Assembly: GCF_963921235.1 (NCBI RefSeq)
Contig: NC_086097.1
Coordinates: 40,984,001 to 41,048,000 of the forward strand
Length of the DNA stretch: 64,000 nucleotides
Source: Mobula hypostoma
Lineage: Eukaryota
Direction of reading: 5' to 3'
The notes beneath the pieces are model-generated. The model had not been told where the DNA came from, did no database searches, and saw nothing but the letters and a program-made list of their open reading frames with translations. Positions 1-12,037 of the stretch are shown here, in pieces. Each line of letters opens with the position of its first letter. Position 1 is the first letter of the stretch. A program made the position numbers and the translations under genes.

Positions 1-59
1 AAAATATATCCAGGGCAGTGTTTCGCCATCAGACAGCAATGCGTAAAAAATAAATGTTC

Positions 60-1213
60 TTCTACCTACTGAACAGAGCTTACTCCCATTTGGATAAGCA
101 GGGCAGCGCTGTGAAGATCCGTGTTTTTTTGATTTCTCAAGTGCCATCATTACTGTACAGCCCTCACTGCAGGGGGAAAAGTCCCATTCAATGCAGATTG
201 GTTTTTCCATTGTATCCTGGATAATGGACAACCTGACTGGCACCACAGTCTGTGCAGCTTCAGAGCTGTGTGTCAGACATGGCTATAAGCAGCACTGTTG
301 CCCCATAGGGAACTGTATTGGCTCCTTTCCTGTTTATCCTGTACACCTTGGACTTCAGATACAACGCAGAATCATGTCATCTGCAGAAAGTCTCTGATGA
401 CTCAGCAATAGCTGTGTGTTTAAAGGGAGGACGGGAGGATGAATACAGGGCCCTGGTGGAGGACTTTCTCAAATAGTGAAAGCTAAATCATCTGCAGCTC
501 AACATTAGTGAGACAAAGGATATGAAGATGGACCTTAGGAAAACTAAGTTTGCACTGCTCCCTGTTACTATTGATGGTGAATACCTACAAGTACATGGAG
601 TGCACCTGGATGACAGACATGAGTGGAGCACCAACACAGAGGCTGTGTACAAGAAGGGCCAGAGTTGCCTCTACTTCATAAGAAGACCGAGGTCCTTTGG
701 AGTATACAGGCCTCTCCTTCACATGTTCTACCAGTCTGTTGTCACCCGTACAGTCTTCTGTGTGGTGGTGTGCTGGGGCAATGGCATCAACATGGGTGAT
801 GCCAACAGATTCAATAAACTGATTAGAAAGATGGGTTCTGTTATAAGAGTCAAACTGGACACACTGGAGGATGTGGTAGAACAAAGGACCCTACAGAAAT
901 TCCTGACAATTCTGGAGAATGCTTTTCACCCTCTGCATGCCAAATTGGCTGGACAGATTAGCATCTTTTAATAATGGACTAAGACAACTGCACTGTGCCA
1001 AAGAGCGCTATATAAGGTCATGCTTACCCTCGGCCATTAGGCTCTATAATACGTTAATCTATAGATGGGAAGTGATAACCCCTCCTGTTAGACTGTTTGT
1101 GGTAACTTATTTTTTATTCTTTCTACTTCTCTACTAATATTTATATCTGCGCACTTGTAATGCTACTGTGTCACTGTAATTTCCTTTGGGATCAATAAAG
1201 TATCTATCTATCT
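60..1213 (+). mobile_element. Rex1/Babar-type LINE, decayed 3' portion (RT, C-terminal domain, tail)
   Basis: Broken frames read RAYSHLDK..FFDFSSA, GTVLAPFLF.LYT, an xSDD-type RT motif near 385-400 and HLQLNIS. ORF 522-971 has KKGQSCLYFIRR..MFYQSVV..WG. Ends with GGGATCAATAAAG(TATC)n. Confidence 0.8.
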
Positions 1214-1340
1214 TTCATAATTCCTTTTGTTGGGGCTTCTTGTGCATAATTTAGCTGCCACATCTCCTACATGGCTGTAATGAGTACATTTCAAAACCTG
1301 TTCCATTGGCTGAACAGCATTCAGAGGTGGCTTAAGTAAA

Positions 1341-1627
1341 TCTATTTATTCATTTATTCAGATACAATGTGGAATATGCCCTTCCAGCCCTTCGAGCCAT
1401 GCCACCTGGCAAATCCCCCCGTTTAATCCATGGGACTATTTACAGTGACCAATTAACCTTTCAACCGGTACGTCTTTAGACTGTGGGAGGAAACCAGAGC
1501 AGCCTGAGGAAACCCATGTGGTCACGAGGAGAACATGCAAACTCCTTACAGGCAGTGGCGGGAATTGAACCTGGGTTGCTGGTACTGTAAAGTGTTGAGC
1601 TAGCCACTAGTCTACTGTGCCACCCCA
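1341..1627 (-). mobile_element. tRNA-derived V-SINE (HE1-like)
   Basis: Reverse strand has a tRNA-like head with B box GGTTCAATTCC, a V-domain-type core (GGGTTTCCTC..GCTCTGGTTTCCTCCCACAGTC), a CR1-like 3' end and an A-rich tail. Confidence 0.8.
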
Positions 1628-3054
1628 CAATATGAAACAAAAGGCTCTACCAAATCTAAATCTTTCTATTTGTCCTGATAAAAAAAAGCACAATATAAAT
1701 ACTGCAATACTGCTTGTGCAATGAAAATTAAATATCTTAGTGTACTAATTTTGTTTCATTTGGCTTTAATTCTATAAAAGGCAAATATTGAAGATCTCAT
1801 TATTTTCTATTAAGAGTTAGCTTCCAGTTAAAAATGTCTAAGTACTGATTGAAGGGTTATTCTCCTCAAAGGTGGATTTCACTCATTTGCAGATTTCTCT
1901 CTTCCTTAAAAACACCGTGGCATCAACAACGCAGATTTATTTACCATCTGCAAAGTGACTCAGTGATCCACAAGTAAAGCATTCTTATTGACCTGTCATT
2001 TATCCACTTAGTTATGCATTGGGGAATAGATCAGATTGTGTTTATGGTGAACATGGCAGGATAGATGAGAAATACCCAGTGCTTTTTTTTTCTAACCTGT
2101 GTTCAACTCACGACTGTATTCATTTTATTAATCAGCTTGTCCATTTCATAAAAATGGGACTGAAGAGAGGCTTATTGTTGTGTGACAAATTATGTGTTAT
2201 AATCTGCTCTTGATTGTGGGGAATAAATTGTGAGGGTATTCACTATAAACCTATTATTATGGCTTTCATGGTATCGGTTACTCATCTGGGTTTCAGATTT
2301 CATTGATTCAAAGGAAGGTCCCACCACTATAATTTAGTTTAAAAATTGCAGCATTCCACAACGACCAGCATTGCAGCTCCTCAAACCTGCTCCAGCTGTC
2401 AGCTTTACACTTCGACTTGCAATTTAGAAAAAAAACATCTGCACCCAGAAGTCATTTTGCCTTCCAAATTTAATTTGTAGTTCAGTCTGTGAAGTTGTGC
2501 TTGCAGTAGAATAAATAATATGGCAAATTGGATTAACGTATAATTACATCTTTTGTTTTGATAGTCAAATTAACATTTAAAAATACAGAACCCTTAGTGT
2601 TATGAATTCAATATTTGAGTTAAAAAATTACCTGCAACCACTCGGCCAGGCCGCAGAGAAAATGATTTGGCAATTAAACACAAGTTTACAAACCTTTATA
2701 ATATTATATAATATTGCAAGGATTTTAATCTGAATATTACTTTTTGTTATTTGTTCTATAAAATTAGATCCTGATTGGATGGTTCTGAGAATGAGATACT
2801 CTGATTTCACAGTTTAATATTTTACTGATTTCTGAGCATTTTTCTATTTTAGAATGACAGCAACATAACTGTTCTAATTCTAACAGTCCTCAAGTGATAA
2901 CGAGGTGAGGGGGAAACAAAAAACAAAATTAAAAGATTTTATTTTACAACAGAAGTTTTAGTTTTAAGTTTTATTTTTATTGGATGTAATTGAATTGGTT
3001 AGAGGATTTTGAACTAGAATTTTGGATATCACCTGAAATATAATTGTTAACTGT

Positions 3055-3228
3055 TGTGTACATACATCTATTGATGCTTCTGGACACATCTTTAGTGATG
3101 TTCCTGGAATCATCGGGTGTTTCGGGTCTTTCAACATCATACAACCTCCTCCAGGTGACCAAGCCGGGGCTGATCAGACCCCAGCTTGTGTCCAGATGGC
3201 TAGCTACTTATGACTCCATGGCTCCCCT
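3055..3228 (-). repeat. 3' copy of the 174-bp terminal direct repeat (last codons plus 3' UTR)
   Basis: Aligns without gaps to 6692-6865; 6 mismatches by hand count. Confidence 0.95.
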
Positions 3229-6200
3229 CTTTTGAGCCACAGCCATCTTGAGGCCCTCTCTGCCGCATCAGTGGTACTGCGGATGGCTCTCCTCTTGCTC
3301 TCTCCCTCGATGCCCAAAATGCTGAAGGCTCTAACTAAAGAACGGGCTACGAATCCCTACAACCAACCTCCACTGGGAGACACCTCGCTCTCCATCCAGC
3401 CTGCTGACAGTTGCTGACCAGTCCTGCGTACTTGGAGAGCTTCCTTTCAAAGGCCTCTTCCAAGCTATCTTCCCATGGGACTGTCAGCTCCAGCAACACC
3501 ACTTGCTTAGTAGACTCAGACACTAGGACAATGTCTGATCACAGGGTGGTGGCTGTGATATGGCTGGGGAACTTCAGCTGCCGTTCGAGGTCCACCAACA
3601 GCTGCCAGTCCCTTGCAGAGGTCAGAATGCCTGCAGATGTTCTTTTGGCGGGTATTGGCTGCTCCCCAGCTCTGACAAAGGCAATGGTCTGCTTGGAGGG
3701 TCGGGACCACTTCACCCACTCAACTCCTGCGCTGACGGCTTCAGCGATGGTCTTCAGGACCCGATCATGCCTCCACCTGTACCGTCCCTCACCAAGTGCC
3801 CTTGCACAGCCGCTGAGGATGTGCTCAAGGGTTCCTCTCTTGGAGCACAGTGGGCGCACAGGTGACTCTGCCTTGCCCCATGTGTGCAGGTTTGATGGGC
3901 TTGGAAGCACATCGTACACTGCCTGGATGAGAAATTGGATGCGGTGTGGTTCGGCTTTCCAAAGATCAGCCCAGGTCACTTTCCTCTCAACCGCATTCTC
4001 CCATCTTGTCCAAGCTCCCTGTTGCTTCATTCCCACCGCCTTGCAGGCTCTCATCGCCTCCACTACTGCTCGCACCTCCTCCTGAACTAGACGACGCCTT
4101 TCCTTCCCTCTGGTGTCCATTTGGGGAGTTGGAAAGGATCCTAGCCCAGCTCGGCCTTGTGTGACCACTCCCACCAGCCTCCTGTGATGCAGCCTCGCCT
4201 CTGCCTCCTGAATAGCTTCCTCTGCCCTCCACTTCCTGCCAGTACTTACTTGGATCCCTGCTCTAGCCACCTTCGGGACATTTGAGTCCCTATACTGTAG
4301 CACTTCTCTGGCTCTTGTTACCTTGAATTCTTCCTCCAAGGATTTGAAGGACAGTTGCAGTTTGTTGTGGTGTCCATAGAGTGCGATGCTGCTCAGGCTC
4401 TTTGGCAGCCCCAGCCATCTCCTGAGGTGGTTGCTAACCCTCCTCTCTAAGGTTTCGACTGTCGAGATCGGAACTGCATAGACGAGGAGGGGCCACAGGA
4501 TTCTGGGAAGAATGCCAAGCTGATACACCCAGGCTTTAAACTTCCCAGGTAGGCCAGACTTGTCCATAGATTTCAGCCAGCTATCCAACTCGGTGCAGGT
4601 TGCCTGAATGGATGTTGTGTCCCTTAAAGAGCTGTCAAAAACTTTGCCTAAGCTCTTGACTGGCTTTTCTGTGATGGTTGGGATGGCTGTGCCTGCGATG
4701 CTGAACCGGAACTTGTTCTCCACATTCCCTTTCCGCAGCACCATCGATCTTGATTTGGCAGGTTTGAAACGCATCCGGGCCCACTCCACCAGCTTTTTGA
4801 GCCCTTGCAGAATCCTCCGGCAGCCTGGGACTGATTCTGTGGTGACTGTGAGGTCATTCATGAATGCCCTGATAGGTGGTTGCCGTTGAGCGGAATTCAT
4901 TCTGGGCCCTCTGGACTCTGGTTCAGCAGACTTAGTGAGCATGTTCATGGCTAGGGAGAACAGTGTCACTGAGATAGTGCACCCTGTAATGATGCCGACC
5001 TCCACCTTGTGCCAGGTTGAAGTAATTGCTCCTGAAGAGACCCTCATCCTGAAGTTGCTGTAATAATCAGTGATAGGGTCTCTGATTCTGCTGGGGGGCA
5101 TGATATTTGGTCAGTGTGAGCTGCACCAGCTTGTGCGGAATGGAGCCATATGCATTTGACAGGTCGAGCCACAATACTGACAGGTTGCCCTTGTTCTCTC
5201 TGGCCTCCTTGATGAGCTGTGTTACCACACCGATGTGCTCCAGACAGCCCGGCATCCCTGATATGCCACCCTTCTGGACTGATGTATCAATATAGGTGTT
5301 CTGTGCTAGGTAGGTGCACAGCCGGTTGGAAACTGCACTGAAGAAGATCTTCGCCTTGACACACAGCAGGGAGATGATGCGAAACTGATCTATCTGGGTG
5401 GCATTTTCCTCCTTCGGGATCCACACCCCTTCAGCCACTCTCCACTGTTCTGGGATCTTCCCCCTTCTCCAGAAGATTCTCAGGATCTTCCACAGACGCA
5501 GCAGGAGTTTGGGGCAGTTCTTGTACACTTTGTACAAGGTGTTGCTTGGTCCTGGAGCCGAGCTTGCCCTTGCTTTGCGGACGACCTCTCTGACTTCCTT
5601 TAGTTGCAGCTCTGACACGTCGAACTGCACATCCGGTTCAGGTGGGTCTATTAGGATGTCGCACTCTCCCATCTCCTGCTCTCTTTCAGGATCAATGTAC
5701 ATCTTCTTCAGATGTTGGTCTATGTCTTCCTGCGAACAGGCCAGTTTCCCACTGCGCTTCTCCCCCAGCAACTCCTTGGTGAACTTGAAGGGGTTGGCGA
5801 TAAAGGCAGCACATTTTCGGGCCCTTTCACGACGCTGCCTCCGATGCCACTCTGCCCGGCAGAGGACCCTGATCTTCTTTCGTAGTATGCACATCAGCTG
5901 GGCCAAGCCCACGTGCTCCTCTTCTCCTGCCTCCTTGTGTTGGGACTTCAGCGCTTTCATCTCCTGCCTGATGTTGTGGATCCTCAGTGCTGTTTGGTTC
6001 TTCGAGTAAGATGTTTTGGAGCCTTCCTTCTCCTCTTCTCCGAACCGTTCAGCTGCGATACTAACATTAATTGTTGTCATAACTTGAAGCTTCCTATCAA
6101 CCCCTCCCTTTGCCGTTGCCTCCAGAATTTGGTTAACATCTTCATCAAACTGCTTCCACAGTGAAGTCATGTTAGCTGCAGGCCATTTGATCCACCTCCT

Positions 6201-6704
6201 GTTAGACTTCATGTTCGAGGGATTAGTTTGCAACACTTGGAGGTTCTGGGCACTATGGGGTGACTCTGGGCCTGGCCCCTCCTTCGTCTCACCAGGTTGG
6301 ACACCTGCGCGTTGTGCTGCTCCTGCTCCCGCCAAACACTTCATCCTCGCTTGGTGGATCTTCAAGCCGCGATCGTTCTTGCAGATTTTGCCACATGCAC
6401 ACTGGTTCCTCATCGTCGTTTGTTCATTGCCTGGGTCTGATGTCGTTGTGTCCATCTGACTGGGGTACTCATCCTCCCCCCTTCTCGGGCACCCCTGGGG
6501 GTATCTTTTCCTTAGATTTTTTGTGGCTTTTGTGGGGGTCCTCCTCTCAGAGGACGCAGATTGGGTTGCCAGCCCGTTCTGCCCTGGTTGCCGTCTCTCC
6601 GGGCTGTCACTGACTCTCCAGTCGTCACCACTCTTTTCGTGGTTGTCACCCAGTCTTTCCTGGTTGTCACTGATTAACTCAGGGTGTAAGCTGTGTACAT
6701 ACAT
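3204..6704 (-). pseudogene. Disrupted single ORF (ZnF-RT-RLE) of the HERO-like element
   Basis: ORFs 5067-6704 and 3539-5101 join through an extra base in the G6 run at 5093-5098. Premature TGA at 3539-3541. One-base deletion near 3355. The frame ends ..ERASRWLWLKRGEPWSHK* at 3204. Confidence 0.85.
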
Positions 6705-6865
6705 CTATTGATGCTTCTGGACACATCTTCAGTGATGTTCCTGGAATCATTGGGTATTTTGGGTCTTTCAACATCATACAACCTCCTCCAGGTGACCGGG
6801 CCGGGGCTGATCAGACCCCAGCTTGTGTCCAGATGGCTAGCTACTTATGACTCCATGGCTCCCCT
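6692..6865 (-). repeat. 5' copy of the 174-bp terminal direct repeat
   Basis: Aligns without gaps to 3055-3228. Confidence 0.95.
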
Positions 6866-6939
6866 AACACTCACCCTTTCCACTTATCAGTTATTTGATC
6901 TCAGACTGTGATTTCTTAAGGTGCTGAGGTTTTTTTAAG

Positions 6940-7480
6940 GAACAGGAGTAGGCCATTCAGACCTTTTTGACTCCATTACCAGTTAGATACAATTCATATC
7001 TCTGACCATGGTCTCAAACCCACTTTTCTCTCTGCTGCCCAGACTCCTTATTTCCCAATAGTTCAAAAGTACATCCCACTTAACTGTGATCCGTGCTTCA
7101 GAACTGTGGTAGAGAATTCTTAGGATGCAAAATCCCAAGACAAGAAAGACATCCGCAGCTCCCTCATCCCCCACATTCTAAAACTGCTTATTCAGCTTCC
7201 TTGTTTGAGATAGCCTCATTAACTCAAAGAGGGGCGTCATCCTCTCAGCATCCATCCAGCCAATCCTACTCAGAGCCTTATTTTTCAAAAGATTACCTCT
7301 CCTCCTTCTATTCAGGCCTGACCTGTTCCCAAAACAACCCTCTCATTCTAGGAATCAACAGTGTGAATCTTCTCAAAACTATCTCTAATGCATGTAAATT
7401 CATAAATAAACATGGTGAATCTGTATGTAGTGGCCCAATGCCTTTTGTAGTTGTAGCAAAACTTCCCCTTTAAAGACCGT
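6940..7480 (-). mobile_element. Old CR1-type LINE 3' fragment
   Basis: Begins GGAACAGGAGTAGGCCATTCAG, as do other CR1 3' ends in the window; heavily decayed. Confidence 0.5.
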
Positions 7481-8574
7481 TGGTTTATCCTTTTATCTAT
7501 TAGTGAATCCGTCTATACTCATGACTGCTGAAATTCCTTTGATAAAGGTGCACCCGCTATACTGTTGGAAAGGGAATTCCAGAATTTTGATCCAGCAATA
7601 ACAGAGGAATAGGGATATATTGTAAGGTGAGTGTGATGTGCAAATTGGAAGGTGGCAAGGGTAAGTGGTGGTGCTTCTGTACATCTGCAGCCCTTGCAAT
7701 TGGAGATAGAGGTTTTGAGTTTGAGAAGTACTATCAGAATAGCCCGGGTAAATAACTAGAGTGCATTTTCTAAATACTGCAGCTCTGTGCAATGGTGATC
7801 TTCAAAGGCCTACTAAACTTTGTCAAACACTTTTTTTTCCTTTCATACAGCCACGTTTAATCCATTTAGAATGATGTACTAACTCTTCTGTTACTTCTTC
7901 AGCGATGAATTTCAACATTTTCCCAAAAGCATGATGACCAGGTTAACCAAAGTTAACTGAGTGTACTCCTGTGTTCTTGTAAAATTATTATTTTTAGAAG
8001 TTATCACTAACAAGGAACAGAGACAATGACAAAACATTGTTGTGGAGTATTTTGTTACTCTGATGCTACTGCTGTAATATTTTAGTGTGGTATGTTTCAT
8101 TAGTGTGTCAGTCAGAAGGTATTCCAGGTAGTTTATGTGGCCTACTTGCCCATCTAATTAAATCAGCAAGAACAGAAGCAGAGGCTTTGAAAGTAAGTGA
8201 ACTTTTCAAGTTTAAAAGGACCCAAGATGCATGAAGTCTAGCAAAATAATGCCATGTTACCCCAGATCTGTCCTCTCCAGCTGCTTACCCAATGGATCAC
8301 CCAGTTAACCTCCCCTCAGTCTTCTGCTCCAGAGTTGTAATTTCCATTGGAGTCTCATTCACGCTAATTCAGTCTGACAATTAAAATGATTTACTCTTGA
8401 ACCTGGGTAGATCCCAGAGCATAGTACATACCAAAACTCAGCCGTTTCACAAATCAACCTCAGCTTGTATTCTCCATTTTCAAACCACAGGTGGTAAGTG
8501 AGCTGAGAAATATTGCAGCAAAGTTCAATCCTAGTGTATGGTTTTAATTAAAGATGGTGAGGGAAGGAGTTGAA

Positions 8575-8786
8575 TATAAAATATTGCAGTTTCTGCATAA
8601 AGTGAAAGGAAAATAAATAACTTTCAGCACATCAAACAGCCTTGGTGGAGAGAAATACATAGGATTAATGCTTCAAGCCAAGGACTCTGGATCAGAACAG
8701 TCAATTGGTCATCAACTTGAAGCATTAAGTCCATCTTTCTCTCTGGAAAATACCCTAAACTGCTCACTGTTTGCAATATTTTTATA
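8575..8786. repeat. ~210-bp foldback (imperfect palindrome), probably an old Penelope-terminus derivative
   Basis: AAAATATTGCA (8578-8588) pairs with TGCAATATTTT (8772-8782); TTAATGCTTCAAG (8665-8677) pairs with CTTGAAGCATTAA (8716-8728). Confidence 0.7.
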
Positions 8787-9867
8787 TAAGATGAGCAATC
8801 CTAATCATCAGCCACCCTTGAACTTCAGCTGAATTCGGATAATTACTTGTGTTACCTTTTGCTGTTCAAAATATTAAAAAAGTGCATGTTTATTTTCTTA
8901 AAATCAATACAACTGATGAGCTTTATCAACATTATATTAACTCTTTGCAATGCATGCTGTTAAGATGAAATTTTAAAATAAAGTTCAATTTGAATATAAC
9001 TAGAAAAATTGACAGCATGCAATTCATGTGTAATGCTCTTGTGTCTTAAAATTATGTCCTCTTAAATGTTGTTTTGTTTACAATTTACATGTAAAATCCA
9101 TTTATAAATGTTAGACTAGGCATGCAATCATTTTTGGGTCGACTGGGAAAATTGGCCGGGGTATATCACTTTCACACATCTGATAACTGCTTGATGCAAG
9201 ATGCATATCTAATGACATCATTCAGTGCAAATGGACTTTTCCATATTTATGAAGAGAAATTGACTGTTGAAGATGTGGGATATTAATAGATGCAAATTAA
9301 AGACCATGGACACTAGATTTATTTTTTTCAGTACTCCACTTTTGTCCAGAAGCATCACTGACAGTGATGGCAGTGTGTCTATATTGTACAAGGTTCTGTG
9401 ATCACTGGCCCCCTTTATGAGCTCGTAGCTCAAAGTGGCTTGTGTCTATTTGCTGCAGGGGAATGAATCAGGTCACAACACAGTGGAAGACCATGTGAAC
9501 CCCCTTCACTACGTTTTCCCTCAGCAACTTGGCAAACGTTTATGCTGCTTTACTCTGAGTTCTGACTCATTTCCCAAGGGTTCATGTGACAGTGATATTA
9601 GATTAGATTATGAGGACACGCAGTCCTCTTTGTTATCGTCTTTGAACTGCAGAAGAAGCTGCTACCAGGAAAGTGGCTGAAAGATGGGGAAAAAGCTGAG
9701 TAAGGTTTTTGTGCTTATTTCAGGATGAAACAACTACAATTATTTTTAACCTTATTTTCATTAATTATGCTTTTTCTTGCGGGATTTCAGATTGAATAGT
9801 TTAGAGTCCAAAAAGCAGTGAACTTGTTGCTTGTGCCTGCTACATGTACAAATGAAATGATGCACTT

Positions 9868-10150
9868 AGAACTAGAGGTCCTCGAGGTTAAGGGTTAAAG
9901 GTGAAGTGTTTAGGGGAATATGGGGGGGATCTTCCTCAGTCAGCGGGTGGCGAGAATGTGTAACAAGCTGTCAATGGAAGTGGTGGATGCGGGCTAGATT
10001 TCAGCACTAAAGAGAAATTTGGATAGGCACATGGATAGGAGGGGTATGGAGGGCTCTAGGCAGGGCTCTGTGACTAGGCAGAATGATAGTTCGGCATGGG
10101 CTAGATGGACTGAAGGGTCTGTTTGTACACTCGTATTCTATGACTCTATT
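9868..10150 (+). mobile_element. CR1 LINE 3' end fragment
   Basis: Similar to the RTRGH..FFTQRVV..WN.L C-terminus and 3' UTR of other CR1 copies here; ends TATTCTATGACTCTAT. Confidence 0.7.
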
Positions 10151-10412
10151 TACTTGTGCATATGACAAGTTTGACTTTTCTTTCTAAGCATTACATTCTT
10201 TTTGAAATGTAAAATGTGATCAGTTGAAGAATATGATTTACATTCACACAGTAAAGGTTTGATATTATTGGATATTACTTAAACCCTTTCCATCTCAAAA
10301 CCTGACTTAATGGCTTTGATTATTGCACTTTAACCAATACTGATTTCCATTATGCTTTTAGACAACTTTTACAATCAGCTGATTTGAAATCAATGTTTGC
10401 TTTTTTAAACAG

Positions 10413-10545
10413 GGCGAAATAAAGATTCTGAAACTGAAGAACCTTCGGCCCAAGGATTATGCAAATTACAGTTGCATCGCATCAGTGAGAAATGTTTGTA
10501 ACATCCCCGACAAGATGGTCTCATTCAAGCTTAGCAATGCGACAG
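10413..10545 (+). CDS. MDGA2: MDGA2 internal exon, C-terminal half of an Ig domain (Ig2), 133 nt, phase 0 to 1
   Basis: Acceptor ttttttaaacAG, donor GTAGGT. Translates GEIKILKLKNLRPKDYANYSCIASVRNVCNIPDKMVSFKLSNAT, recognised as MDGA2-like with a D.A.Y.C Ig motif. Phase matches the next exon (G+CT=Ala). Confidence 0.93.
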
Positions 10546-10906
10546 GTAGGTCGTGTTATCAGTTCGTGTAGAAAGACGATGCCTGTCCGGTCACAGACTT
10601 AGTTCTCTTGATCCTCATTCTGCATCGACCAAGCTTTTTTTTAGATTTATTGTACTGCAGAAAGAACTCTGCAACTTCTCAGTGTGCAGGACTACACAAG
10701 TATAAAGTGATAGGCTTCTAAAAGGAACTAATGATCGATGTAAACGTTTGGAATGGGTATAGGCTCATTATCAGTCTCCAGCATGCCATCCACGCTGTGT
10801 CAAACTAGTGTCTTGGTTGTATCAGTGCACTGCACAGAGCAGGCAGTTTCATTTTTAATGCTGACAAAAGAGATTGCAAGTGTTGGAATCTGGAACAAAA
10901 TCATAC

Positions 10907-11195
10907 TGCCAGAATAGCGTAGTGGTCAGCACAAGGCTTTACAGTGCATGCAGCCCAAGTTCAATTCCCGCCACTGCCTGTAAGCAGTTTGTACGTTCTC
11001 CCCGTGGCCGCATGGGTTTCCTCCAGGTACTCCGGTTTCCTCCCACAGTCCGGAGACATTCTGGCTGGTAGGTTAATTGGTCATTGCAACTTGACCCATG
11101 TTAGGCTAGGATTGAATCAGGCGATTGCTGGGCTAAGTGGATCAAAGGGCCGATGGGGTCTGTTCCACACTGCAGCTCAACAAACAAATAAACAA
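10907..11195 (+). mobile_element. tRNA-derived V-SINE
   Basis: A box TAGCGTAGTGG (10915-10925), B box GTTCAATTCC (10959-10968), V-domain core, (ACAA)n-like tail. Confidence 0.8.
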
Positions 11196-11199
11196 AACT

Positions 11200-11535
11200 G
11201 CACAGTCTGTGGCGGCAGTGGGGTTAAGCTGATGTTCTAGACCGAGATTCTGCATCTGGATTCAGAGAGGAGCATTAACATTGCCAGCATATAGCAGGAG
11301 GATGGAAGGGTCGGACAGAGTTGGTAGGTCGAACAAAATGAGGGATGGGGTAGGAAATGGGTAAGTGGAACCAGATGAGGGAGAGGATGGGAAAGGTGAA
11401 CAAATTGAGAAGGCAACTAGGTGGGTAGGTGAGTGTGCATAGGAGGAGAGCGCCGGGGTGGGTGGGGGAGAGGAGGAGGAGAACGAGGGGTGTGGGTTAA
11501 CTGAAACTGGAAAATTCACTGTTTTTAACCTTGGA
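11200..11535 (-). mobile_element. Decayed Penelope pseudo-LTR fragment
   Basis: Purine-rich tract resembling 58540-58930 and 48490-48810. Confidence 0.5.
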
Positions 11536-11537
11536 AG

Positions 11538-12037
11538 CAGAATCAGAATCAGAATCAGGTTTATAACCACTAACAGATGTATGTCATGAAATTTGTTGTT
11601 TATTGGCAGGAATACAGTACAATAAAGAAAATATACTATAAATTACAGTAATAAGTAATACTATAAAAAGTTTTGTAAAAACAGAGCAAAAATAGCAAGC
11701 TAGTGTTCATGGATCCATGGACTGTTTAGAAATCTGATGACAGAGGGGAGAAAGCTATTCTTAAAATATTGAGTGTGTTAAATCAGGCTTCTGTACCTCC
11801 TCTCTGATGGTGGTAATGAGAAGAGGGCATATCCTGGGTTGTGGATGCCGCCTTCTTGAAGCATAACTTTTTGATCATGTCCTCACTGCTAGGAGGCTAG
11901 TGGCTGTGATGGGGCAGGCTAGGTTTACAACCCTCTGTAGCTTTGTCCAGTCCTGTACAATGGCTCCTCGATACTAAATGGTGATGCAACCAGCAAGAAT
12001 GTTCTCTGTGCTATATCTGTAGAAATTTGCTAAAGTC
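11538..12037 (-). mobile_element. Rex1/Babar-type LINE 3' fragment
   Basis: (AGAATC)3 tail at the left end; reverse-complement similarity to 15870-16425. Confidence 0.7.

What the first reader, a model, noticed from the sequence alone, without database searches (positions are those of the whole stretch)
3079..3196. Candidate undescribed ribozyme-like RNA in the HERO-like terminal repeat: kink-turn plus non-standardly permuted hammerhead core
Seen on the - strand RNA, starting 7 nt after the stop codon and repeated at 6716-6833. (1) A perfect 10-bp closing stem UCUGGACACA/UGUGUCCAGA. (2) A hairpin GGGGUCUGAUCAGCCCC. (3) A canonical kink-turn: strand ACACCC-[GAU]-GA-UUCCAGG (3103-3120) against CCUGGAG-GA-GGUUGU (3141-3155), i.e. 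3-nt bulge, tandem G.A pairs and flanking helices. (4) UGAUGUU/AACAUCA (7 bp) and GGUC/GACC (or GGGUCU/AGACCC), which cross the other helices and make pseudoknots. The hammerhead core strings lie in exact register: GUA then stem I; the stem I partner directly before CUGAAGA; GAAAC pairing back to GUA as stem III. Their linear order (NUH, GAAA, CUGAnGA) matches none of hammerhead types I-III, and the K-turn could route the backbone to allow it. Caveats: this copy has CUAAAGA and the other has AAAAU, so only the two-copy consensus has a full core; stem II is ambiguous; steric feasibility is unproven. Inference: a self-cleaving/ligating RNA, or a structured element recognised by the RT.
Basis: partly seen in the sequence, partly recalled or inferred. 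Interest (0 to 1): 0.85.

Follow-up and report, generated by a model that had tools for sequence, protein, structure and literature searches.

The report
Rearranged hammerhead ribozyme in a retrotransposon
The 118-base RNA just after the stop codon of this fish retrotransposon carries every conserved part of a hammerhead self-cutting RNA, wired together in an order not described before, and it is conserved in related elements, although actual cutting still has to be shown at the bench.

Summary

**What is there.** The 118 nt at 3079-3196 (- strand), repeated at 6716-6833, lie in the 3'UTR of an R2-like non-LTR retrotransposon (zinc finger, RT, CCHC, restriction-like endonuclease).

**Evidence from relatives.**
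- A covariance model found 45 copies. 43 are in 37 of 79 related metagenome loci and two are in the window.
- All lie on the ORF strand, either right after the ORF or as a partial unit upstream of it.
- All six helices covary, both pseudoknots included.
- The hammerhead core is kept: CUGAnGA 44 of 45, GAAA 39 of 45, G10.1 39 of 44, C11.1 44 of 45. In the A15.1-U16.1 pair, 42 of the 43 rows with letters are U-A. H17 is never G.

**Relation to known forms.**
- The block order (site, GAAA, CUGAnGA) is that of the "type SGC" permuted hammerheads (Eckert et al. 2023). Those were known only from metatranscriptomes.
- Here the chain is opened between A9 and G10.1. A closing stem and a hairpin bridge the gap as a four-way junction.
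- A kink-turn joins stem III to the helix that links stems I and II.
- Rfam matches nothing.

**Limits.**
- Both window copies are decayed.
- Cleavage is inferred, not shown. Genomic copy ends show no pile-up at the predicted site.

**Verdict.** New variant of a known kind, of high interest.

The parts
3079..3196 (-). Permuted hammerhead motif, terminal (3'UTR) copy. It is damaged: G5->A and U at 10.1.
   Evidence: Sequence. Covariance model R1 matches 3075-3200 at 136.5 bits, but this copy was in the seed. Helices and core as listed in the other parts.
6716..6833 (-). Same motif in the partial unit upstream of the element's 5' end. It is damaged: G12->A, C15.2->U and C at 10.1. Every part lies at the terminal-copy coordinate + 3637.
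   Evidence: R1 match 6712-6837, 129.3 bits; also in the seed.
3187..3196 (-). Closing stem P0, 5' strand. It pairs with 3079-3088.
   Evidence: 10 of 10 pairs have changes on both sides among relatives.
3079..3088 (-). Closing stem P0, 3' strand. It starts directly after A9 of CUGAnGA.
3162..3186 (-). Hairpin B: stem 3186-3179 with 3169-3162, loop 3178-3170. The loop holds the palindrome UGAUCA (3176-3171).
   Evidence: 8 of 8 pairs covary on A4. A loop palindrome (UGAUCA, UGGCCA or UGUACA) is present in 29 of the 42 rows that include the loop.
3157..3161 (-). Stem II, 5' strand (10.1-10.5). It follows hairpin B with no spacer. G10.1 is U in this copy.
   Evidence: Counted from the core outward, 84% paired against 62% in shuffles (0 of 1000). 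G10.1 in 39 of 44 rows.
3124..3128 (-). Stem II, 3' strand (11.5-11.1), directly before GAAA.
   Evidence: C11.1 in 44 of 45 rows. 3 of 5 pairs have changes on both sides on A3.
3150..3155 (-). Bridging (NC) helix, 5' strand. It is separated from stem II by one nucleotide, A3156.
   Evidence: 6 of 6 pairs covary.
3103..3108 (-). Bridging (NC) helix, 3' strand. It leads into the 3' strand of stem I.
3147..3148 (-). Kink-turn, G-A of the strand without the bulge.
   Evidence: N-G-A at this place in 34 of 45 rows.
3110..3114 (-). Kink-turn, 3-nt bulge (GAU, 3114-3112) followed by G-A (3111-3110).
   Evidence: Pattern NNN-GA-N in 36 of 45 rows.
3141..3146 (-). Stem III, 5' strand, ending in U16.1 (3141).
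   Evidence: 5 of 6 pairs covary. The sixth, U16.1-A15.1, is U-A in 42 of the 43 rows with letters.
3140..3140 (-). H17, here A. Predicted cleavage is between 3140 and 3139 (6777/6776 in the other copy).
   Evidence: H17 is A 16, C 14, U 15 and G 0 in 45 rows. The cleavage itself is inferred.
3133..3139 (-). Stem I, 5' strand.
   Evidence: Counted from the core outward, 92.6% paired against 49.8% in shuffles (0 of 1000), with 3-5 pair types per position.
3096..3102 (-). Stem I, 3' strand, directly before CUGAnGA.
3115..3123 (-). G12 A13 A14 (3123-3121), then stem III 3' strand starting with A15.1 (3120-3115).
   Evidence: GAAA in 39 of 45 rows. Five of the six exceptions read AAAA after a C, a CpG-type change; the sixth (L107) is an alignment gap, the sequence reading GAA-A.
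3089..3095 (-). CUGAnGA box (C3-A9). It reads CUAAAGA in this copy and CUGAAGA at 6726-6732.
   Evidence: CUGAnGA in 44 of 45 rows. N7 is A 9, U 25, C 11.
3055..3078 (-). 3' tail: small hairpin CAUC (3076-3073) with GAUG (3068-3065), then GUAUGUACACA, the 3' end of inserted copies.
   Evidence: 3' ends of the copies. The hairpin changes on both sides in relatives, by eye on the alignment.
3055..6691 (-). One unit of the retrotransposon (3637 bp): structured 5'UTR, ORF (frameshifted here) with zinc finger, RT, CCHC and endonuclease motifs, and 3'UTR.

Best explanation
**What it is.** The element is a hammerhead ribozyme whose strands are joined in a non-circularly permuted, pseudoknotted order.

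**Fold.**
- Reading 5' to 3': closing stem P0, hairpin B, stem II 5' strand, bridging helix, kink-turn, stem III 5' strand, H17, stem I 5' strand.
- Then a short linker, stem II 3' strand, GAAA, stem III 3' strand, kink-turn bulge, bridging helix and stem I 3' strand.
- Last come CUGAnGA and the P0 3' strand.
- Stems I, II and III surround the usual core.
- A9 and G10.1 are not bonded to each other. They meet at a four-way junction (core, P0, B, II) that has no unpaired nucleotides.
- The far ends of stems I and II meet the bridging helix at a second junction. A kink-turn folds that helix back onto stem III.

**Chemistry (inferred).** Attack of the 2'-OH of H17 (A3140) cuts between 3140 and 3139. 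This leaves a 2',3'-cyclic phosphate and a 5'-OH.

**Role (inferred).**
- Full-length copies sit as partial head-to-tail tandems, so one ribozyme lies about 260 nt upstream of the likely start codon.
- Cutting there would trim upstream read-through RNA and define the 5' end of the element's RNA. HDV-like ribozymes do this in R2, as I recall it (checked in no call here), and twister variants do it in Perere-3 (abstract read).
- The same fold at the 3' end probably also serves as the structured 3'UTR that the RT recognises.

**Shown or inferred.** Shown: the helices, their covariation, core conservation, position and strand. Inferred: cleavage, its site, and the biological role.
For: **Distribution**
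- nhmmer with a profile of this genome's copies found the motif directly after the ORF end in 15 divergent metagenome loci.
- A covariance model of the nested helices then found 45 matches at E <= 1 in 364,634 bases. All are on the ORF strand.
- Of 35 loci with a recognisable ORF end and at least 140 nt downstream, 27 have the motif within -40 to +400 nt. L110's match starts 54 nt before my estimated ORF end. L081 has a variant seen by eye.

**Covariation**
- Alignment not fitted to structure: 90.3% paired against 75.5% in shuffles, 29 of 42 pairs changed on both sides, and every helix has compensatory pairs.
- 45-row alignment, fitted to the model: 94.0% against 62.2%, and 29 of 30 pairs changed on both sides. 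The one pair without such changes is A15.1-U16.1.
- Stems counted outward from the core, free of alignment gaps: stem I 92.6% against 49.8%; stem II 84% against 62%; 0 of 1000 shuffles reach either.

**Core**
- CUGAnGA 44 of 45, with N7 varying.
- GAAA 39 of 45.
- U16.1 43 of 45.
- H17 is A, C or U and never G.
- G10.1 39 of 44. C11.1 44 of 45.

**Precedent**
- Type-SGC hammerheads have the same block order, the same short link from stem I to stem II and the same bridging helix. They cleave in vitro at the predicted site (PMC10085705, sections 13 and 18).

**Position in the element**
- 26 of 29 copies that reach the 5' end carry an upstream partial unit.
- Upstream copies also occur in other lineages: L062, L064, L073, L077, L084, L095, L120 and others.
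- In this genome, upstream units mostly keep G5 (17 G, 3 A). Terminal units mostly have G5->A (6 G, 22 A). Fisher p = 2e-5.
Against: - No cleavage assay exists. No run on record as RNA was available, and contigs cannot show RNA ends.
- Genomic footprints do not show cutting. Of 26 upstream partial units, only one (L039) ends within 2 nt of the predicted site, and 21 reach that site or extend beyond it.
- 0 of 30 copies sampled with the 85-nt 3' product begin at the site.
- So the RNAs that were copied into DNA were mostly uncut.
- A subfamily with G5->A in the terminal unit has multiplied (25 of 49 sampled copies). An active ribozyme at the 3' end is therefore not needed for copying.
- A break between A9 and G10.1 has no tested precedent. 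The authors of the permutation scheme assumed that block cannot be interrupted.
- The upstream/terminal contrast comes from two searches seeded with this window's own element. The copies are related, and one row (L029:1501) was misfiled by my rule.
- The 45-row alignment is fitted to the model's nested helices.
Confidence: 0.7

Rival explanations
1. It is a structured 3'UTR that the element's RT binds to start target-primed reverse transcription. It has a hammerhead-like shape but no catalytic role, either as a relic ribozyme or as a mimic.
For: - The motif sits where R2-type elements carry their RT-binding 3'UTR RNA (established knowledge, recalled).
- Copies were made mostly from uncut RNA.
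- A G5->A subfamily multiplied.
- The fold has parts no ribozyme needs: a kink-turn, a palindromic loop and a tail hairpin.
Against: - A binding role alone does not explain why unpaired catalytic nucleotides stay fixed (C3, U4, G5, A6, G8, A9, G12-A14) while N7 floats.
- It also does not explain why H17 takes all three allowed letters but never G.
- The two roles are not exclusive.
Confidence: 0.15
2. It is a retrozyme-like cycle. The ribozymes at both unit borders cut a longer-than-unit transcript. The ends, held together by five helices, are ligated to a circular RNA. That circle is copied by rolling-circle reverse transcription, which yields the partial tandems.
For: - Both cleavage products would stay paired through P0, II, the bridging helix, III and I (structure).
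- The unit junction ACACA|GCUUAC is uniform.
- Upstream units vary in length.
- 3' ends often run on with G, GC or GCU, the first letters of the 5' end: 25, 15 and 9 of 30.
Against: - Elements with both units sampled often differ between them. The window, L007 and L029 have G upstream and A at the end. A circle or a jump to another RNA's 3' end would make the two units alike.
- No joint was seen in the contigs, but contigs are not a fair test.
- The G/GC/GCU run-on can also be a ragged true 3' end, ...ACACAGCU.
Confidence: 0.1
3. It is a member of an already catalogued RNA family: hammerhead type I, II or III, an HDV-like ribozyme, twister or another.
For: Ribozymes of those classes are known at the ends of other retroelements (PMC4209133, listing only; PMC8501958, abstract).
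Against: - Rfam 15 at E <= 10 gives no ribozyme match in window 1-12000 or in 3030-3260.
- It gives none in eight loci with intact motifs.
- The block order cannot be drawn as a three-way junction.
- I could not fit an HDV-like fold by hand, either on the motif or on the 5' end. That attempt was by eye and weak.
Confidence: 0.02
4. It is chance pattern matching, or conservation caused by an overlapping reading frame.
For: - Some annotated fish proteins read through the first half of the motif (P0015, P0016, P0025).
- Short motifs such as GAAA are common.
Against: - Compensatory changes occur in all six helices.
- The motif follows a stop codon in this family.
- It also occurs upstream of ORFs.
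Confidence: 0.01

Closest known systems
Type-SGC hammerhead ribozymes (HRIMA-1 motif and variants), Eckert, Friedrich, Weinberg and Weinberg, NAR 2023 (PMC10085705)
   Same: - Block order: site, then GAAA, then CUGAnGA.
- Stems I, II and III with two pseudoknots in the core.
- A short linker from the 5' strand of stem I to the 3' strand of stem II.
- A helix joining the other sides of stems I and II, whose far end lies next to the far end of stem III.
- All core nucleotides conserved.
   Different: - Here CUGAnGA is followed by a closing stem, not by stem II. The stem II 5' strand lies upstream of the cleavage-site block, after an extra hairpin. Block C is therefore split, and the gap is bridged by a four-way junction.
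- The ends of the type-SGC chain are joined here by a kink-turn.
- This motif is encoded in animal genomes, inside a retrotransposon. Type SGC was found only in metatranscriptomes; the paper says no such RNA was found in genomes of known organisms, apart from one GCS candidate.
- Type SGC is validated by cleavage assays. This motif is not.
Hammerheads in the pseudo-LTRs of Penelope-like elements (PMC4209133, listing only; PMC11167929, passages read)
   Same: - A hammerhead in the repeated stretch between units of a retroelement that inserts as partial tandems.
- In the Anolis element, uncut RNA was the main substrate for insertion, and no RNA-seq reads ended at the cut site. That matches the lack of footprints here.
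   Different: - The Anolis PLE hammerhead is described with the canonical stems (passages read). That PLE hammerheads are minimal type-I forms, some acting as dimers, is recalled.
- The PLE endonuclease is GIY-YIG.
- This element has an R2-like RT with CCHC and restriction-like endonuclease motifs.
HDV-like ribozymes at the 5' end of R2 and other non-LTR elements (recalled), and twister variants at the 5' end of Perere-3 (PMC8501958, abstract read)
   Same: A self-cleaving RNA upstream of the ORF of a non-LTR retrotransposon. It frees the element's RNA from an upstream co-transcript and allows translation.
   Different: - A different ribozyme class.
- There the ribozyme is part of the 5' end only. 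Here it is the 3'UTR, and it comes to lie upstream only through the tandem arrangement.
- In Perere-3, target-site duplications abut the cleavage site. Here copy ends do not.
R2 3'UTR RNA bound by the R2 protein (PMC12222951, start of abstract in the search listing only; otherwise recalled)
   Same: A pseudoknotted, conserved 3'UTR right after the ORF of an R2-type element, close to where reverse transcription starts.
   Different: The R2 3'UTR has no hammerhead core. Binding of this RNA by its RT has not been tested.
Kink-turn (Kt-7 type), recalled consensus
   Same: - A 3-nt bulge.
- Tandem G-A/A-G.
- A Watson-Crick helix on one side (stem III) and a second helix on the other.
- Both helices covary.
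   Different: Only the sequence pattern was tested. Six rows replace it with a 5-8-nt bulge on the other strand.

Membership tests
Hammerhead ribozyme (catalytic core) | C3 U4 G5 A6 N7 G8 A9, placed directly 3' of stem I | tested here: met
   44 of 45 rows. N7 is A 9, U 25, C 11. The window's 3' copy is the exception (CUAAAGA).
Hammerhead ribozyme (catalytic core) | G12 A13 A14 between stem II and stem III | tested here: met
   GAAA (including A15.1) in 39 of 45 rows. Five of the six exceptions read AAAA after a C; the sixth (L107) is an alignment gap.
Hammerhead ribozyme (catalytic core) | A15.1-U16.1 pair followed by H17, which is not G | tested here: met
   U-A in 42 of the 43 rows with letters. 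H17 is A 16, C 14, U 15, G 0.
Hammerhead ribozyme (catalytic core) | G10.1-C11.1 at the base of stem II | tested here: met
   G in 39 of 44 rows and C in 44 of 45. In this motif G10.1 is not bonded to A9.
Hammerhead ribozyme (catalytic core) | Stems I, II and III supported by covariation | tested here: met
Hammerhead ribozyme (catalytic core) | Site-specific self-cleavage 3' of H17 | not testable with these tools
   No RNA reads were available. DNA copy ends show no pile-up at the site.
Hammerhead types I, II, III (Rfam models) | An unknotted three-way junction, and a match to a family model | tested here: not met
   No hammerhead match at E <= 10. Stems I and II cross the other helices.
Type-SGC hammerhead (Eckert et al. 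2023) | Block order S, G, C | tested here: met
   Order seen in all 45 rows.
Type-SGC hammerhead (Eckert et al. 2023) | A short linker from stem I to stem II, and a helix joining their other sides | tested here: met
   The linker is about 1-5 nt in the strings printed. All 6 pairs of the bridging helix covary.
Type-SGC hammerhead (Eckert et al. 2023) | Block C uninterrupted: CUGAnGA directly followed by the stem II strand | tested here: not met
   CUGAnGA is followed by the P0 3' strand. The stem II 5' strand follows hairpin B, upstream of block S.
Kink-turn | A 3-nt bulge, then tandem G-A/A-G, between two helices | tested here: met
   N-G-A in 34 of 45 rows and NNN-GA-N in 36 of 45. Both helices covary.
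Kink-turn | Kinked geometry, or binding by an L7Ae-type protein | not testable with these tools
   No RNA 3D tool or assay was available.
HERO clade of non-LTR retrotransposons | Placement of the RT with Repbase HERO references | not tested
   No reference sequences were at hand. The host range of the protein hits (teleosts, amphioxus, bivalves) resembles that of named HERO elements listed in PMC7650587 (passages read).
R2-like (restriction-like endonuclease) non-LTR retrotransposons | N-terminal zinc finger, RT, CCHC motif and a PD...E.K-type endonuclease after the RT, with no AP endonuclease | tested here: inconclusive
   - RVT_1 scores 28.4 and 25.4 bits, just under the 29.6 cut-off, because a frameshift splits the domain.
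- The CCHC and RPD...ELTVPWE motifs were read by eye.
- One homologue is named R2 by its source.

The most novel reading that the evidence does not exclude
This would be a further hammerhead topology, one the published six-permutation scheme excluded by assumption.

- The CUGAnGA block is split from stem II and bridged by a four-way junction.
- A kink-turn closes the chain on the other side.

It would also be the first non-circularly permuted ribozyme encoded in animal genomes. A first-look protein search gave 12,747 candidate places for this protein domain in this genome, at least 150 of them scoring at E <= 1e-78.

In this reading it works as one multi-purpose RNA module at the unit border of an R2-like retrotransposon:
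- a ribozyme that trims the 5' end;
- a fold recognised by the RT;
- in most lineages, a palindromic kissing loop that pairs two RNAs.
Probability: 0.55. Interest if true: 0.88.

Novelty: new variant of a known kind. Interest (0 to 1): 0.82.

Why it matters
- Non-circular permutation of an RNA fold has been shown only once, for hammerheads of virus-like circular RNAs in metatranscriptomes.
- This motif would extend it to cellular genomes, and to a connectivity that breaks one of the three blocks thought to be indivisible. That says the hammerhead core tolerates a strand exchange next to A9/G10.1.
- It offers an answer to a puzzle raised in that paper: how the far end of stem III can sit next to the helix that ties stems I and II. 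Here a kink-turn makes the bend.
- It adds hammerheads to the ribozyme classes used by non-LTR retrotransposons, and it links them to partial tandem insertion.
- The ribozyme, the kink-turn and the loop palindrome can each be tested with short transcripts.
- Pattern searches for permuted ribozymes that assume intact blocks would miss this family.

Tried and rejected
**Searches that found nothing**
- Rfam at E <= 10 on the window and on eight intact relatives: no ribozyme family.
- Earlier findings of this scan: none.

**Structures rejected**
- An HDV-like fold on the motif and on the 5' end of the unit. I could not fit it by eye. There is no room for P4 and J4/2, and no partner for a P1 starting at GCUUACA.
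- The idea that the ORF starts at the AUG in the tail of the upstream unit (6704). It is in frame, but intact relatives start 192-328 nt after the motif. The likely start is the AUG at 6455.

**RNA evidence**
- No RNA holder was listed. All 22 runs are kept as contigs, and none is on record as RNA.
- Laying four of the 22 runs gave no joints and no places where molecules begin or end.
- A fall in summed contig depth near 6776 in two runs is not usable, because depth is one figure per contig.

**Footprints of cleavage in DNA copies**
- No pile-up of 5' ends at 3139.

**Limits of the tools**
- A protein search with a distant relative returned only the same family, at 51-55% identity. Other lineages in this genome were therefore not examined.
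- Supplementary figures S6-S8 and S18 of PMC10085705 were not opened. They show the type-SGC consensus and the 3D compatibility, and they may bear on how close the two architectures are.
Full report
**1. The observation**

On the - strand, the ORF of a retrotransposon ends with TAG at 3206-3204. Seven nucleotides later the 118-nt stretch 3196-3079 begins. The stretch is repeated at 6833-6716, inside a 174-nt direct repeat, 3055-3228 and 6692-6865, 97% identical and 3637 nt apart.

The 118 nt fold at -48.8 kcal/mol with z = -4.09; 0 of 200 shuffles fold as well. The opposite strand gives z = -2.88. The borders were chosen by a stem, so these figures alone prove little.

**2. The surroundings**

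The unit 6691-3055 encodes an N-terminal zinc finger, a reverse transcriptase, a CCHC motif and an RPD...ELTVPWE endonuclease motif.
- Pfam RVT_1 scores 28.4 and 25.4 bits, split by a frameshift.
- The CCHC and endonuclease motifs were read by eye.
- This is the layout of R2-like non-LTR elements. The label HERO was not tested.

Protein relatives are common:
- teleosts: 82-83% identity in Conger, a pipefish and a cardinalfish;
- amphioxus: 62%;
- bivalves: 47-53%.

In the window's own genome (3.48 Gb) a protein search gave 12,747 first-look candidates, with open frames up to 1166 aa.

Copies with the 174-nt unit are 95-100% identical to the query. Most copies are cut short at the 5' end, and all end at ...GUACACA.

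Of 29 other copies that reach the 5' end, 26 carry an upstream partial unit and 3 start at 6689-6691. The upstream units vary in length; their ends correspond to 3087-3681. The 'terminal repeat' is therefore a partial head-to-tail tandem, not an LTR.

**3. Relatives of the RNA**

An alignment of 22 homologous proteins was used to fetch 79 metagenome loci. Their proteins matched the query protein P0001 at 36-89% identity, best segment.
- A profile of this genome's copies found the motif directly after the ORF end in 15 loci.
- A covariance model of the four nested helices, R1, found 45 matches at E <= 1 in 364,634 bases. All are on the ORF strand.
- Of 35 loci with an ORF end and at least 140 nt downstream, 27 have the motif there. 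L110's match overlaps my estimated ORF end. L081 has a variant that the model missed.
- The remaining misses, L097, L112, L125, L139, L101 and L102, are among the most distant proteins.
- Upstream partial or full copies occur in L062, L064, L073, L077, L084, L095, L120 and others. The tandem layout is therefore a family trait.

**4. Structure**

On a MAFFT alignment of 17 sequences (A3, not fitted to a structure), the six-helix structure with both pseudoknots gives:

| Measure | Observed | Shuffled |
|---|---|---|
| Cells paired | 90.3% | 75.5 +/- 1.0% (0 of 500 reach it) |
| Pairs changed on both sides | 29 of 42 | 14.8 |
| Covariation score | 0.406 | 0.160 |
| Cells paired with partners slid 1-3 columns | 32-44% | - |

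On the 45-row model-fitted alignment, the nested helices are 94.0% paired against 62.2%, and 29 of 30 pairs have changes on both sides.

Counted outward from the core, which avoids gaps:
- stem I is 92.6% paired against 49.8% (0 of 1000 shuffles reach it);
- stem II is 84% paired against 62% (0 of 1000). Its forms include GGGUC/GACCC, GGCGC/GCGCC, GACCC/GGGUC, GACUC/GAGUC, GCUCC/GGAGC and GCCCC/GGGGC.

**5. The core**

| Feature | Count |
|---|---|
| CUGAnGA | 44 of 45 (N7: A 9, U 25, C 11) |
| GAAA | 39 of 45 (five exceptions AAAA after C, CpG decay; L107 an alignment gap) |
| U16.1 | 43 of 45 |
| A15.1-U16.1 | U-A in 42 of the 43 rows with letters; the only pair without changes on both sides |
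| H17 | A 16, C 14, U 15, G 0 |
| G10.1 | 39 of 44 |
| C11.1 | 44 of 45 |

This is the full signature of a hammerhead active site, including the unpaired positions.

**6. Connectivity**

Along the RNA the order is:
1. P0 5' strand, hairpin B, stem II 5' strand, one A.
2. Bridging helix 5' strand, G-GA, stem III 5' strand, H17, stem I 5' strand.
3. A 1-5-nt linker, stem II 3' strand, GAAA, stem III 3' strand.
4. A 3-nt bulge, GA, bridging helix 3' strand, stem I 3' strand.
5. CUGAnGA, P0 3' strand.

Stems I and II cross the other helices.

No nucleotide is left unpaired between P0 and B, between B and stem II, between stem II and G12, or between A9 and P0. The core, P0, B and stem II therefore meet at a perfect four-way junction, and G10.1 faces A9 without being bonded to it.

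At their far ends, stems I and II and the bridging helix form a second junction.

Between the bridging helix and stem III lies the kink-turn pattern: N-G-A in 34 of 45 rows and NNN-GA-N in 36 of 45. Six rows have instead a 5-8-nt bulge on the other strand.

**7. What is known**

Rfam has no match.

Eckert et al. 2023 (PMC10085705; abstract, sections 13 and 15, part 1 of section 18, and passages read) divided the hammerhead into three blocks:
- G: GAAA with the near sides of stems II and III;
- C: CUGAnGA with the near sides of stems I and II.

They assumed the blocks cannot be interrupted. They found and validated type SGC in metatranscriptomes, and they state that no such RNA was found in genomes of known organisms, apart from one GCS candidate.

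Type SGC has the same short link from stem I to stem II and the same bridging helix as this motif. The authors noted as a puzzle that the helix's far end is joined to the far end of stem III by as few as 0 nt.

The present motif has the order S, G, C, but block C is split. In effect it is the type-SGC chain closed by a kink-turn at its former ends and reopened between A9 and G10.1, with P0 and hairpin B added there.

Searches found no paper on such a motif in retrotransposons:
- 'type-SGC', 'non-circular permutation' and 'HRIMA';
- hammerhead with non-LTR, HERO, kink-turn or four-way junction.

The library lacks most subscription journals.

**8. Function**

Evidence for a role upstream of the ORF:
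- Nearly all full-length copies carry an upstream unit.
- Intact relatives start their ORF 192-328 nt after the motif.
- In this genome, upstream units mostly keep G5 (17 G, 3 A), while terminal units mostly carry G5->A (6 G, 22 A; Fisher p = 2e-5).
- That count has weaknesses. One row was misfiled, both samples were seeded from this window's element, and the copies are related.

This fits the way HDV-like ribozymes (recalled) and twister variants (PMC8501958, abstract) free the 5' end of other non-LTR elements.

Evidence against a simple version of that role:
- 21 of 26 upstream units reach or run past the predicted cut, and only one ends within 2 nt of it.
- 0 of 30 copies sampled with the 85-nt 3' product start there.

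So the RNAs copied into DNA were mostly uncut. The same was reported for a Penelope-like element (PMC11167929, passages read).

Three elements have G upstream and A at the end (window, L007, L029). That argues against rolling-circle copying of a circular RNA, and against a jump onto another RNA's 3' end, as the usual source of the upstream unit.

No RNA data could be used.

**9. The window's copies**

Both are decayed:
- the 3' copy has CUAAAGA and U at 10.1;
- the 5' copy has CCAAAAU in place of CCGAAAC, and C at 10.1.

Contigs of other organisms carry the intact letters at those places of the upstream copy. 16 of 49 sampled copies in this genome keep the whole core.

**10. Verdict**

- The permuted-hammerhead and kink-turn reading is supported by covariation and core conservation.
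- Catalysis and role remain inferred.
- It is a new variant of a known kind.

Noticed in passing
window 3171-3176 (and 6808-6813), - strand; loci of alignment A4: The loop of hairpin B holds a 6-nt palindrome in 29 of the 42 rows that include the loop. The centre changes on both sides: UGAUCA 20, UGGCCA 8, UGUACA 1. This suggests a kissing-loop contact between two RNAs, like a retroviral dimer initiation site (recalled).
   Followed up: partly
window about 6565-6684, - strand: The 5'UTR just after the unit junction is an array of about five small hairpins separated by UGAC, for example CCAGG-AAAGA-CUGG. It is conserved, with changes on both sides of the stems, in L062, L064, L073, L077, L084, L095, L106, L120 and L133. 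It may be a second RNA element bound by the element's protein.
   Followed up: partly
window 3055-3078, - strand: After the ribozyme comes a small hairpin (CAUC/GAUG; CACC/GGUG or CUUCC/GGAAG in relatives), followed by GUAU... up to the 3' end. It is probably part of the site where reverse transcription starts.
   Followed up: partly
3' junctions of 30 terminal units in L001-L060: The flank after ...GUACACA begins with G in 25, GC in 15 and GCU in 9 of 30. These are the first letters of the unit's 5' end (GCUUAC). Either the true 3' end is ...ACACAGCU and ragged, or the templates ran on into a next unit.
   Followed up: partly
L006, L007, L008, L029, L053, L059, L060: Seven copies join the 5' part (ending between about 5961 and 6135 in window coordinates) to the last 290-360 nt (starting between about 3338 and 3416). 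Each has a different breakpoint. These are recurrent internal deletions, not one spliced form.
   Followed up: no
alignment A1, window position 3093: G5 of the hammerhead box is polymorphic in this genome. It is A in 25 and G in 23 of 49 sampled copies. The state goes with the unit's position, upstream or terminal.
   Followed up: yes
proteins P0015, P0016, P0025: Annotated proteins of three teleosts run about 20 residues past the usual C-terminus (PLGHK...LGRPSEG). In another frame the window's motif reads PSGHKLGSDQPRLGHLEEVV. Gene models there seem to read through the first half of the ribozyme.
   Followed up: partly
window 6704, - strand: An AUG in the tail of the upstream unit is in frame with the 545-aa ORF. 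Relatives start at the equivalent of the AUG at 6455, so the longer frame is probably accidental.
   Followed up: yes
window 1429-1622 and 10907-11100: An inverted repeat with 194-nt arms, 79% complementary and 9284 nt apart, brackets the retrotransposon.
   Followed up: no
one search hit list: The protein is 82-83% identical in an eel, a pipefish and a cardinalfish, but 61-67% identical in many other teleosts. This patchy pattern could reflect horizontal transfer or several old lineages.
   Followed up: no
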